NCBI GenBank assembly: GCA_009694925.1
Contig: SIBX01000001.1
Span: forward strand, 1 to 59,243
Source: Minisyncoccota bacterium
GTDB lineage: Bacteria; Patescibacteriota; Minisyncoccia; UBA6257; 1-14-0-10-40-38
DNA: 59,243 nucleotides
Direction: 5' to 3'
The notes under the pieces are model-generated. The model did not search any database, was not told where the DNA came from, and saw nothing but the letters and a program-made list of their open reading frames with translations. The translations under genes and the position numbers were made by a program. This document shows, one piece after another, positions 24,505 through 24,868 of the stretch; the stretch's first letter is position 1; every line of letters begins with the position of its first letter.

Positions 24505-24533
24505 TTGACTTAAAATATTTATATTGTTAAGGT
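24505..24533 (+). promoter_or_regulatory. predicted promoter of the island H RNA (extended -10)
   Basis: TTGACT, 17 nt spacer ending in TGt, then TAAGGT. Confidence 0.55.
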
Positions 24534-24539
24534 TTTAGA

Positions 24540-24830
24540 GAAGTAAGTCGAGAAGTCGCAAGTCAGCTTTTGGACGCTAAGCTTTCCTTCTTTGCCAGCA
24601 TCCAAAAGTCCGCAAATGGGCTCTTCTTCGCACAAGAGTTGAATTTCTCGTTTCATTCGGTCTCTCAATCCTCGGGCGACCACTGGCTAACCGACTAGAC
24701 CCGGTAAGCCGATACGGTGAGCAATCTCTGGGACAATGTAAGAGTTAATGAACCAGGGAGCGAGAAAAATTGTGCTTCTAGGCTTATCGGCTTCGGGTTG
24801 AGGCAACTCCTCCGCCCGAAGCCTCTTTAA
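24540..24830 (+). ncRNA. ORF-less GC-rich structured RNA, about 290 nt (sRNA or leader upstream of ychF)
   Basis: Helix 24567-24574/24601-24608. Terminator ggcttcggg-(17 nt)-cccgaagcc followed by tcttt (24789-24830). 24706-24714 can pair with 24785-24793, which overlaps the terminator 5' arm. Confidence 0.5.
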
Positions 24831-24859
24831 TTGCAATCTTAACCAAACCTTATTAAAAT
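24831..24859 (+). promoter_or_regulatory. predicted ychF promoter, short-leader geometry
   Basis: TTGCAA, 17 nt spacer, TAAAAT, then 9 nt to the ATG. No SD. Confidence 0.5.
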
Positions 24860-24868
24860 ACTTTAGAC

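What the first reader, a model, noticed from the sequence alone, without database searches (positions are those of the whole stretch)
24505..24868. Island H: about 290-nt ORF-less RNA whose terminator can be disrupted by an upstream complementary segment, directly upstream of ychF
TTGACT-17(TGn)-TAAGGT drives a GC-rich RNA with helix 24567-24574/24601-24608 and terminator 24789-24830. Segment 24706-24714 (aagccgata) is complementary to 24785-24793 (tatcggctt), which overlaps the terminator 5' arm (24789-24797). This gives a mutually exclusive terminator/anti-terminator arrangement. ychF starts 39 nt after the T-stretch. The unit could be a new cis-regulatory leader for ychF or an independent sRNA.
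Basis: inference. Interest (0 to 1): 0.65.

Follow-up and report, generated by a model that had tools for sequence, protein, structure and literature searches.

The report
Small structured RNA gene before ychF
The roughly 290-base GC-rich stretch upstream of ychF in this tiny-genome (Parcubacteria/CPR) bacterium is a real structured RNA with its own promoter and terminator, found only in its closest relatives, and the proposed terminator on/off switch for ychF is not supported.

Summary
These are a TTGACT-17(TGn)-TAAGGT promoter-like site, a GC-rich ORF-less region, the 8-bp helix, a strong hairpin with a U-rich tail, and the 9-nt complementarity. No Rfam family, tmRNA or RNase P model matches; the genome's RNase P RNA lies at 8112-8480.

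Two close relatives hidden inside 90% protein clusters carry a homologue in the same slot: V2 (89.9% identical) and V3 (68.3%). The element is more conserved than ychF third codon positions (73% and 56%). Its promoter is conserved, and the closing stem and terminator hairpin each show four compensatory base-pair changes. It is therefore a real structured RNA under selection.

The proposed antiterminator is not conserved. It has a mismatch in V2 and is split by an 11-nt insertion in V3, with no compensatory change. Forcing it costs +17.6 kcal/mol.

The next relative (78% YchF identity) and most Parcubacteria lack the element. ychF has no Shine-Dalgarno sequence and has its own -10 hexamer 9 nt before the ATG, a pattern that recurs in relatives.

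Best reading: a stand-alone, genus-restricted ncRNA gene of unknown function, not a ychF riboswitch. It is one of several promoter, GC-rich region and terminator units in this window.

The parts
24505..24533 (+). Sigma-70-type promoter of the RNA: -35 TTGACT (24505-10), 17-nt spacer ending in TGT (extended -10), -10 TAAGGT (24528-33). The predicted transcription start is near 24540.
   Evidence: Sequence and custom scan. The site is conserved in the relatives: V2 is identical, and V3 has TTGACA-17(TGT)-TAAAAT although 8 of 17 spacer positions differ.
24540..24832 (+). Predicted ~290-nt non-coding transcript (H RNA), about 50% GC in a 35% GC genome.
   Evidence: MFE is -109 kcal/mol with z -4.0/-4.6 on the + strand and -2.0 on the - strand. 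There is no period-3 signal (1.2). Indels among the homologues are not multiples of three, and the 17-aa ORF is not conserved. Identity to V2 is 89.9% and to V3 68.3%, against 73% and 56% at ychF third codon positions.
24543..24561 (+). 5' strand of the closing stem P1: P1a GUAAGUC 24543-49, P1b AGAAG 24551-55, P1c CGCAA 24557-61.
   Evidence: It pairs with 24770-24787 in the MFE with pair probabilities of 0.86-1.0. There are 4 compensatory and 3 one-sided pair-preserving changes across W, V2 and V3.
24770..24787 (+). 3' strand of the closing stem P1: UUGUG 24770-74, CUUCU 24775-79, GGCUUAU 24781-87.
   Evidence: The two V2 substitutions at 24787-88 turn G-U into G-C and add an A-U pair to P1.
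24566..24609 (+). Hairpin a.
   Evidence: MFE. There are 2 compensatory columns, and the C.A mismatch becomes U-G in V2 and C-G in V3. V3 has a 3x3 internal loop.
24620..24639 (+). Hairpin b (GCUCUU / AAGAGU).
   Evidence: All six pairs are kept in all three variants, with 1 compensatory and 2 one-sided changes. The V2 change falls in the loop.
24644..24767 (+). Inner domain closed by P3 (UUUCUCGUUUC 24644-54 / GGAGCGAGAAA 24757-67). It holds hairpin c (24659-81), the conserved core and hairpin f (CUGG 24728-31 / CCAG 24753-56).
   Evidence: MFE of W and V2. By my own hand pairing, not checked by any tool (P3 was left unscored for V3), V3 appears to keep P3 in a shifted register with a bulge. 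RNAalifold prefers partly different inner helices, so the inner topology is not settled.
24681..24745 (+). Most conserved core: CACU-GGCUAACCG-loop-CGGUAAGCC-GAUAC-GGUG, followed by AGCAAUCUCUGGGACAAU.
   Evidence: About 82% identity to V3 in this stretch, against 68% overall. V2 changes fall only in the loop, and the CACU/GGUG and GGCU.ACCG/CGGU.AGCC helices are mostly invariant.
24789..24832 (+). Intrinsic-terminator-like hairpin (24789-24823) with a U-rich tail UCUUUAAUU (24824-32).
   Evidence: -25 kcal/mol with pair probability of at least 0.996. There are 4 compensatory columns, 1 wobble-to-Watson-Crick change and 1 mismatch repaired to A-U across the three variants. V3 has a perfect 15-bp stem followed by a U6 run.
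24706..24714 (+). In the MFE it belongs to the 3' strand of hairpin d.
   Evidence: It is complementary to 24785-93 in this genome only. There is no compensatory change, the helix is broken in V2 and V3, and forcing it costs +17.6 kcal/mol.
24831..24868 (+). ychF's own promoter-like site, TTGCAA-17-TAAAAT (24831-59), lying 9 nt before the ATG with no Shine-Dalgarno sequence.
   Evidence: Promoter scan. In 76 Parcubacteria ychF loci, -10-like hexamers pile up 7-9 nt before the ATG (26 loci), and only 3 loci have an SD-like motif. The site is kept in V2. In V3 the -35 is deleted but TAAAAT remains.
24869..25864 (+). ychF (331 aa), the downstream neighbour and not part of the RNA.
   Evidence: Pfam MMR_HSR1 plus YchF-GTPase_C.

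Best explanation
Island H is a stand-alone gene for a structured non-coding RNA of about 290 nt, restricted to one genus-level group of Parcubacteria.

Inferred from sequence: it is transcribed from its own sigma-70-type promoter (TTGACT-17-TGn-TAAGGT, start near 24540). Shown by covariation: the RNA folds so that its 5' and 3' ends pair in a long interrupted closing stem (P1) that encloses several hairpins and a highly conserved core (24681-24745). It ends at a strong hairpin with a U-rich tail (24789-24832), and that hairpin's structure is also shown by covariation.

Inferred: the hairpin terminates the RNA and shields the ychF promoter, which starts 8 nt further on, from upstream transcription. 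ychF is then expressed mainly from its own promoter as a leaderless or nearly leaderless mRNA.

The function of the RNA is not shown. The most likely mode is a stable trans-acting RNA that works through its conserved single-stranded and junction core, for example as a protein-binding or scaffold RNA. This last step is inference only.
For: - Homologues occupy the same slot in two close relatives.
- The RNA is 89.9% and 68.3% identical to them, against 73.2% and 56.3% at ychF third codon positions.
- The promoter hexamers and spacer length are conserved while the spacer sequence diverges.
- Compensatory changes: P1 4 columns, terminator 4, hairpin a 2, hairpin b 1.
- RNAalifold predicts 82 pairs, 11 of them with changes on both sides.
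- 94.2% of cells are paired and 11 pairs change on both sides, against 0-3 in slid controls and 1 of 500 shuffles.
- There is no coding signal. Period-3 power is 1.2, indels are not multiples of three, and the small ORF is not conserved.
- The element is absent from the next relative L082, where ychF is intact behind a 72-nt spacer, and from most Parcubacteria.
- ychF has no SD and has a -10 hexamer 9 nt before the ATG, a pattern shared by 26 of 76 relatives.
- Six other strong TTGAC-N16-18-TAnnnT sites in the window also sit directly upstream of GC-rich units ending in hairpin plus U tail. Their strand matches the more negative folding z-score. Four of them (A3, E, J1, K) cannot be 5' leaders of any neighbouring gene.
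Against: - There are no expression data, so the promoter, the RNA ends and the terminator efficiency are all predictions.
- Only three distinct sequences exist, two of them 90% identical, and the structure tested was derived from the same alignment. The covariation statistics therefore have low power.
- The inner topology differs between the MFE and RNAalifold.
- The RNA is co-oriented with ychF and ends 45 nt before it in all three genomes, which is also what a leader would look like.
- In V3 the -35 of the ychF promoter is deleted, so read-through could matter there.
- Some of the analogous GC-rich units in the window look protein-coding (B, E, J2). The promoter-plus-terminator layout is therefore not specific to RNA genes.
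Confidence: 0.6

Rival explanations
1. Cis-regulatory leader or attenuator of ychF. Transcription from the 24505 promoter is the regulated source of ychF mRNA, and a ligand, protein or the ribosome decides whether the 24789-24823 hairpin terminates. The switch could be the reader's 24706-14/24785-93 antiterminator or some other rearrangement of P1.
For: - The orientation matches ychF, and the hairpin ends 45 nt before the ATG in W and V2 and about 25 nt before it in V3.
- A P1-closed multi-helix domain followed by a terminator is the usual riboswitch layout.
- The 9-nt complement is rare in shuffles (0.5%).
- Other Parcubacteria carry different structured RNAs with terminators in the same slot: family X in four loci and another element in L003, whose hairpin ends 10 nt before the ATG.
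- V3 lacks a -35 for ychF.
Against: - The antiterminator is not conserved and has no compensatory change.
- No perfect Watson-Crick complement of 6 nt or more to the terminator arm exists in V2 or V3.
- Forcing the antiterminator costs +17.6 kcal/mol and its ensemble probability is about zero.
- The V2 substitutions strengthen P1 rather than the alternative helix.
- The element is absent in L082 and most relatives, which still have ychF.
- ychF has no SD, and its -10 hexamer is placed as for a leaderless mRNA. An internal AUG on a read-through transcript would be poorly translated.
- No Rfam riboswitch or leader matches.
Confidence: 0.17
2. The element is a 3' untranslated tail and terminator of the upstream operon (alr, the 263-aa gene and the 128-aa gene). 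It may be processed into a stable 3'-UTR-derived RNA rather than being primarily transcribed from its own promoter.
For: - No terminator lies between the stop codon of the 128-aa gene (24502) and the element, so upstream transcripts would run into it and stop at 24823.
- All three genomes keep the 128/129-aa gene directly upstream.
Against: - The conserved -35 and -10 hexamers, with conserved spacing, lie exactly at the 5' edge.
- L082 and L085 keep the upstream gene without the element.
- Similar units elsewhere in the window have their own promoters and are antisense to their neighbours.
Confidence: 0.12
3. The element is non-functional: a recently acquired foreign or selfish insertion, or a decaying remnant. 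Its apparent structure is a by-product of GC-rich composition.
For: - It has a patchy distribution and is absent from the 78%-identity relative.
- The window holds many GC-rich orphan islands, some apparently coding, with no homologues among 5.8 billion proteins.
- No homologue was found in phage, plasmid or viral collections.
Against: - It is more conserved than synonymous sites.
- 11 compensatory pairs are seen, and substitutions are concentrated in loops.
- The promoter is conserved.
- There are no repeats of it in the window or in the loci searched.
Confidence: 0.06
4. The element encodes a small protein or leader peptide, for example the 17-aa ORF starting at ATG 24750 whose stop lies inside the terminator.
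For: The ORF MNQGARKIVLLGLSASG ends within the terminator's 5' half, which would allow translation-coupled antitermination (reading by eye).
Against: - The stop codon is lost in V2 and the ATG is lost in V3.
- Indels are not multiples of three.
- There is no period-3 signal.
- None of the four ORFs of 37 aa or longer that I looked up in the element (two on each strand) is in the protein collection, and the gene calls on L001, L171-L174 and L175-L177 include none there.
Confidence: 0.03

Closest known systems
Transcription-terminating riboswitches and attenuator leaders (P1-closed aptamer plus terminator expression platform)
   Same: It has a promoter, then a GC-rich multi-helix domain closed by a long P1 stem, then an intrinsic-terminator-like hairpin shortly before a co-oriented gene.
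   Different: - No conserved antiterminator.
- Not associated with ychF beyond three close genomes.
- ychF has its own promoter-like site and no SD.
- No Rfam match.
Stand-alone structured bacterial ncRNAs seen as GC-rich intergenic islands in AT-rich genomes (the class targeted by GC-IGR screens such as DIMPL, PMC8723152, PMC6429828)
   Same: - A long, GC-rich, ORF-free intergenic region with its own promoter and terminator.
- Compensatory base-pair changes.
- 5' and 3' ends paired.
   Different: - Belongs to no described family.
- Known from only three genomes.
- Function unknown.
Bacterial RNase P RNA class A (RF00010), including the diverged CPR forms described in PMC8172020
   Same: It shares local strings with RNase P (AAAGUCCG and GGCUUAUCGG, as I recall the E. 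coli M1 RNA sequence) and is GC-rich. CPR RNase P RNAs are known to fall below Rfam thresholds.
   Different: - No covariance-model score, even at E<=10 on 316 nt.
- By my own reading of the sequence, not a tool test, it lacks the J2/4 ACAGAA element.
- The genome's real RNase P RNA is at 8112-8480 (83 bits, E 1e-23).
'Family X' (found here, unnamed): a structured RNA in the same slot, between the 128-aa gene and ychF, in four other Parcubacteria loci (L084, L002, L089, L096)
   Same: - Same genomic slot and orientation.
- Promoter-like site read by eye at the 5' edge of L084; the other three members were not examined for one.
- Same layout of closing stem, multi-helix body and terminator.
- Absent from close relatives (L085 against L084).
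   Different: - Family X has a conserved 3' module (CCGAYCCAAA, then an 8-bp hairpin with an AGGCG loop, then GAGC) that H lacks.
- The X covariance model scores H at 0 bits or less.
- nhmmer detects no sequence similarity.

Membership tests
Any Rfam 15 family (4227 models) | Covariance-model score at or above the family's gathering threshold | tested here: not met
   There is no hit in 24350-25000 at gathering. At E<=10 there is no + strand hit, and the only hit inside the element itself (24505-24868) is a 17.7-bit - strand match to leuA-Halobacteria; the four other weak - strand snoRNA matches lie in or run into the ychF coding sequence.
RNase P RNA class A | Match to RF00010, including the P4 strands and J2/4. 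The gene is normally single-copy. | tested here: not met
   RF00010 does not hit H. It hits 8112-8480 full length at 83.1 bits, E 1e-23.
tmRNA / tRNA | ARAGORN detection of a tRNA-like domain and a tag ORF | tested here: not met
   ARAGORN finds only tRNA-Gln at 54620-54693 in the window.
Terminator/antiterminator riboswitch or attenuator | Mutually exclusive terminator and antiterminator helices that are both conserved, ideally with covariation | tested here: not met
   The terminator has 4 compensatory columns. The antiterminator has none, is mismatched in V2, and in V3 is split by an 11-nt insertion with its 5' segment changed. Forcing it costs +17.6 kcal/mol.
Terminator/antiterminator riboswitch or attenuator | The element is the 5' UTR of the regulated gene and keeps that association across lineages | tested here: inconclusive
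   It is co-oriented and adjacent in three close genomes. It is absent in L082 and in most of about 130 Parcubacteria ychF loci. ychF has its own -10 hexamer 9 nt before the ATG and no SD. There are no transcript data.
Rho-independent (intrinsic) terminator | A GC-rich stem-loop immediately followed by a U-rich tract, with the structure conserved | tested here: met
   The stem is -25 kcal/mol and 5 of the next 8 bases are U. The stem is kept in all three variants with 4 compensatory pairs, and V3 has a U6 run. Termination activity itself was not tested.
Sigma-70-type promoter | -35 and -10 hexamers at 16-18 nt spacing, conserved among homologues | tested here: met
   TTGACT/TTGACA, a 17-nt spacer with TGT, and TAAGGT/TAAAAT are seen in all three variants although the spacer sequence has diverged. 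Activity was not tested.
Family X (this study) | The conserved 3' module with an 8-bp hairpin and AGGCG loop, scored with covariance model R1 | tested here: not met
   R1 gives 72-82 bits for the four members and 0 bits or less for 24450-24900 with filters off.
Protein-coding gene or small ORF | A conserved reading frame, period-3 signal, and indels in multiples of three | tested here: not met
   Period-3 power is 1.2, against 9-15 for the longer genes tested (ychF, alr, serS); the test has little power at this length, since the real 387-nt 128-aa gene also scores only 1.27. There are 1-, 2-, 5-, 11- and 14-nt indels. The 17-aa ORF is lost in V2 and V3.

The most novel reading that the evidence does not exclude
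H may be one member of a sizeable, undescribed repertoire of strongly promoted, GC-rich, highly structured lineage-specific RNAs in this Parcubacteria lineage. At least 7 non-coding-looking GC-rich islands lie in 59 kb; 5 of them have a stringent promoter match, and 4 promoter-bearing units cannot be leaders. The spacer before ychF would then be a hotspot where unrelated structured RNAs (H, family X, the L003 element) have been gained and lost. Alternatively, H and family X could be new classes of cis-regulators of the ribosome-associated ATPase YchF, working by a mechanism other than the proposed antiterminator.
Probability: 0.15. Interest if true: 0.6.

Novelty: new member of a known kind. 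Interest (0 to 1): 0.35.

Why it matters
CPR/Patescibacteria have tiny genomes with little room for non-coding DNA, and their RNA repertoire is almost unexplored. Even their RNase P RNA escapes standard thresholds.

This work establishes that a 290-nt intergenic island is a selected, structured RNA with its own promoter and terminator. It also shows that several similar units sit nearby and that other Parcubacteria carry different structured RNAs in the same slot. Together these give concrete candidates for new RNA families.

It also removes a tempting but unsupported riboswitch annotation for ychF. In addition, it yields a testable statement that ychF in these bacteria is expressed as a leaderless mRNA.

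Tried and rejected
- **RNase P RNA.** I suspected it from the strings AAAGUCCG and GGCUUAUCGG and from reports of diverged CPR RNase P (PMC8172020). It is rejected: there is no covariance-model score, and the true gene is at 8112-8480.
- **tmRNA or tRNA-like.** ARAGORN is negative.
- **Conserved ychF leader.** nhmmer with H against 165 ychF loci from GTDB genomes and JGI metagenomes found nothing beyond the identical contig L001. Upstream spacers are mostly short and AT-rich.
- **Membership of family X.** The covariance model R1 is negative.
- **Relation to the L003 element.** The shared 10-mer GGCGACCACU lies in a stem in H and in a loop in L003, so I judged it chance.
- **Similarity among the window's GC-rich islands.** None by blastn, and there are no shared k-mers.
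- **Phage or plasmid origin.** blastn in distant mode found no match. Of two viral-contig scans with H k-mers, the 20-mer found nothing and the 17-mer gave one match, inside a coding region of a high-GC contig and judged chance; four matches to a family X pattern, scanned at the same time, were likewise in high-GC coding regions.
- **Finding homologues through spurious ORF translations.** None of the four H ORFs of 37 aa or longer that I looked up is in the protein collection.
- **Foreign coding fragment.** The GC-rich 241-aa ORF of island J2 has no homologue among 5.8 billion proteins, so the islands are orphans rather than recognisable imports. Pfam found nothing in the ORFs of islands A2, A3, B, C, E and J.
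- **Distant members of the H family.** The covariance model R2 of the conserved core finds only W, V2 and V3 in about 650 kb of relatives' loci.
- **Wasted scan.** My first use of the single genome-contig scan went on the YchF protein, so no DNA-pattern scan of that collection was possible for H.

Full report
**What is there**

The window has 35% GC. The 366-nt spacer between a 128-aa ORF (24116-24502) and ychF (24869-25864) rises to about 50% GC.
- TTGACT (24505-10), a 17-nt spacer ending in TGT, and TAAGGT (24528-33).
- The perfect 8-bp helix 24567-74/24601-08.
- A -25 kcal/mol hairpin at 24789-24823 followed by UCUUUAAUU.
- The exact 9-nt complementarity of 24706-14 with 24785-93, which overlaps the hairpin's 5' arm by 5 nt.

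A complement of that length and position arises in only 0.5% of dinucleotide shuffles. The + strand folds far better than shuffles (z -4.0 and -4.6). The - strand does not (z -2.0). In the MFE, the 5' end (24543-61) pairs with 24770-87 in a long interrupted closing stem. This stem encloses several hairpins, and the terminator hairpin follows directly.

**What it is not**

Rfam has nothing here at gathering. At E<=10 on the isolated 316 nt there is no + strand hit, only a weak - strand match (17.7 bits). ARAGORN finds nothing.

I suspected a reduced RNase P RNA because of the local strings AAAGUCCG and GGCUUAUCGG. CPR RNase P RNAs are also known to fall below thresholds (PMC8172020). A permissive scan of the whole window placed the real RNase P RNA at 8112-8480 (RF00010, 83 bits against a gathering score of 100, E 1e-23, full length). 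That idea is rejected.

**Organism and distribution**

YchF places the window in Parcubacteria/Paceibacteria, with Harrisonbacteria, Liptonbacteria and Wolfebacteria at 60-67% identity. In about 130 ychF loci from genomes and metagenomes, the spacer upstream of ychF is usually under 200 nt and AT-rich. nhmmer finds no copy of H. The closest cluster representative (L082, 78% YchF identity) has the same gene order but only a 72-nt AT-rich spacer. H is therefore not a conserved ychF leader.

**Close relatives**

The protein searches collapse sequences at 90% identity. Listing cluster members exposed two closer genomes.
- Loci L171-L174 (variant V2) and L175-L177 (variant V3, NCBI GCA_964543265.1) keep the layout of a 128/129-aa gene, a 367-371-nt spacer and ychF.
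- The spacer aligns with H at 89.9% identity (V2) and 68.3% (V3).
- ychF third codon positions are only 73.2% and 56.3% identical.
- The core 24681-24745 is about 82% identical even to V3.

The element is therefore under purifying selection.

**Structure**

Substitutions fall in loops or are compensated. Counting by hand-aligned helices gave the following.
- Closing stem P1: 4 compensatory columns and 3 pair-preserving one-sided changes.
- Terminator: 4 compensatory columns, one wobble-to-Watson-Crick change, and one mismatch repaired to A-U.
- Hairpin a: 2 compensatory columns.
- Hairpin b: 1 compensatory column.

RNAalifold on the MAFFT alignment predicts 82 pairs, 11 with changes on both sides. 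On that structure 94.2% of cells are paired. There are 11 both-side pairs, against 0-3 when partners are slid by 1-3 columns, and 1 of 500 shuffles reaches this value.

Three caveats apply. There are only three sequences. The structure was derived from the same alignment. The inner helices (P3 against the RNAalifold alternatives) are not settled.

Coding is unlikely. There is no period-3 signal. Indels of 1, 2, 5, 11 and 14 nt occur. The only ATG ORF of note (17 aa from 24750) loses its stop in V2 and its ATG in V3.

**The proposed switch**

In V2 the 3' segment UAUCGGCUU became UACUGGCUU. This gives a G-U pair and an A.C mismatch in the putative antiterminator. The same two changes turn a G-U into G-C and add an A-U pair in P1. 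In V3 the 5' segment is UAUCCGACA, and an 11-nt insertion splits the 3' segment.

No column shows a compensatory change. No perfect complement of 6 nt or more to the terminator arm exists in V2 or V3. In the window's own sequence, forcing the helix costs +17.6 kcal/mol and its ensemble probability is about zero.

**Transcription units**

The RNA's promoter is conserved: TTGACT or TTGACA, exactly 17 nt with TGT, then TAAGGT or TAAAAT. Meanwhile 8 of 17 spacer bases differ in V3.

Directly after the terminator, the tool finds TTGCAA-17-TAAAAT at 24831-59, 9 nt before the ychF ATG. There is no Shine-Dalgarno sequence. Across 76 Parcubacteria ychF loci, strong -10-like hexamers pile up 7-9 nt before the ATG (26 loci, against about 1 per other position). 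Only 3 loci have an SD-like motif. ychF in this group therefore looks like a leaderless mRNA with its own promoter. A read-through transcript carrying an internal, SD-less AUG would be a poor template. V3 has lost the -35 of that promoter, so some dependence on read-through cannot be excluded there.

**Context in the window**

The window contains many GC-rich, ORF-poor islands. Of 15 stringent TTGAC-N16-18-TAnnnT matches, 7 sit directly upstream of such islands. In each case the promoter strand is the strand with the more negative folding z-score, and each unit ends in a strong hairpin with a U tail. The seven units are:
- A3 on the - strand, promoter at 9652
- B on the + strand, promoter at 11929
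- C on the + strand, promoter at 17532
- E on the - strand, promoter at 22040
- H on the + strand, promoter at 24505
- J1 on the + strand, promoter at 32974
- K on the - strand, promoter at 46861

A3, E, J1 and K are antisense or convergent to their neighbours and cannot be leaders.

Units B, E and J2 show period-3 signals and are probably orphan GC-rich protein genes. The 241-aa J2 ORF has no homologue among 5.8 billion proteins. The others, including H, look non-coding. Islands D, I and part of E are also conserved in the close relatives.

**The slot in other lineages**

Four other loci (L084, L002, L089, L096) carry an unrelated structured RNA, 'family X', in the same slot. It has a conserved module: CCGAYCCAAA, then an 8-bp hairpin with an AGGCG loop and compensatory changes, then GAGC. 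Its covariance model finds only those four loci and scores H at 0 bits or less. L084 has family X, but L085, whose YchF is 89% identical, lacks it. L003 has yet another element with a perfect 15-bp closing stem. The spacer before ychF is thus repeatedly occupied by different units that each consist of a closing stem, a structured body and a terminator hairpin; a promoter-like site was read by eye for L084 and L003.

**Verdict**

H is a real, selected, structured RNA with its own conserved promoter and terminator. It is restricted to three closely related genomes and belongs to no known family. The best reading is a stand-alone ncRNA gene whose terminator also insulates the ychF promoter (confidence about 0.6). 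A cis-regulatory role for ychF is not excluded, but it lacks support, and the specific terminator/antiterminator model is refuted by non-conservation. The function is unknown, and a trans-acting protein-binding role is inference only.

It is a new member of a known kind. Interest is moderate to low for the element itself and higher for the wider pattern of structured-RNA units in this genome.

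Noticed in passing
window 8112-8480 (+): This is the genome's RNase P RNA. It gives a full-length match to RF00010 at 83.1 bits, E 1e-23. That is below Rfam's gathering score of 100, so standard annotation misses it. This fits the reported diverged CPR RNase P RNAs (PMC8172020).
   Followed up: partly
window 9000-9652 (-), 17532-17935 (+), 32974-33312 (+), 46340-46861 (-), and also 28811-29431 (+) and 53827-54225 (+): These are further GC-rich, apparently non-coding units. Each of the four listed promoter-bearing units (A3, C, J1, K) has a strong TTGAC-N17/18-TAnnnT promoter; the promoter scan found none for 28811-29431 or 53827-54225. 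All have very negative folding z-scores (-3.8 to -8.2) and a hairpin plus U-tail terminator. A3, J1 and K cannot be 5' leaders of their neighbours. None is in Rfam, and none resembles another. Island I is conserved in relative L171.
   Followed up: partly
window 11929-12650 (+), 21400-22040 (-), 33480-34320 (+): GC-rich islands B, E and J2 show clear period-3 signals (13.2, 5.2, 9.9) and long ORFs, so they are probably orphan protein genes. B has a signal-peptide-like N-terminus. The 241-aa J2 ORF has no homologue among 5.8 billion proteins, yet its DNA also folds with z about -9. The E ORF is annotated as 150-186 aa in relatives.
   Followed up: partly
L084 236-492, L002 2500-2790, L089 1740-2040, L096 1-170: 'Family X' is an undescribed structured RNA between the 128-aa-gene homologue and ychF in four other Parcubacteria. 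It has a conserved module: CCGAYCCAAAnnA, then an 8-bp hairpin UCGGRRNG-AGGCG-CNYYCCGA with compensatory changes, then GAGC. A terminator follows. It has no Rfam match, and it is absent from L085 although L085's YchF is 89% identical to that of L084.
   Followed up: partly
L003 2745-2990: Another unrelated GC-rich element occupies the same slot. It is closed by a perfect 15-bp stem (CUCCAACAAGGAAAA/UUUUCCUUGUUGGAG). It is followed by a long hairpin that ends only 10 nt before the ychF ATG.
   Followed up: no
76 Parcubacteria ychF loci (L002-L129) and window 24854-24868: -10-like hexamers cluster 7-9 nt upstream of the ychF start codon (26 of 76 loci), and SD-like motifs are almost absent (3 of 76). 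This suggests that ychF is generally a leaderless mRNA in this group.
   Followed up: yes
L007 2780-2898 (-): A LOOT RNA (RF03000, 72 bits) lies on the opposite strand just upstream of ychF in a Patescibacteria MAG. L020 2331-2429 (-) has a SAM riboswitch.
   Followed up: no
window 24116-24502 (+): The 128-aa upstream protein has no significant family. It gives only a weak DUF4258 hit (E 0.07). It is conserved directly upstream of ychF in many Parcubacteria, whether or not an RNA island is present.
   Followed up: partly
window 4392-4509 (-): There is a sub-threshold Rfam match to Thr_leader (39.5 bits, E 7e-4), with overlapping weak hits to several unrelated small-RNA models. It is probably an AT-rich hairpin artefact, but I did not examine it.
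   Followed up: no
L002 2790-2900 (+): After the family X terminator there is a second small unit: TTGACA-16/17-TAAACT, then a short hairpin, then the terminator GCCUCAUAAGAGC...GCUCUUAUGAGG with a U tract. It looks like a separate sRNA of about 90 nt.
   Followed up: no
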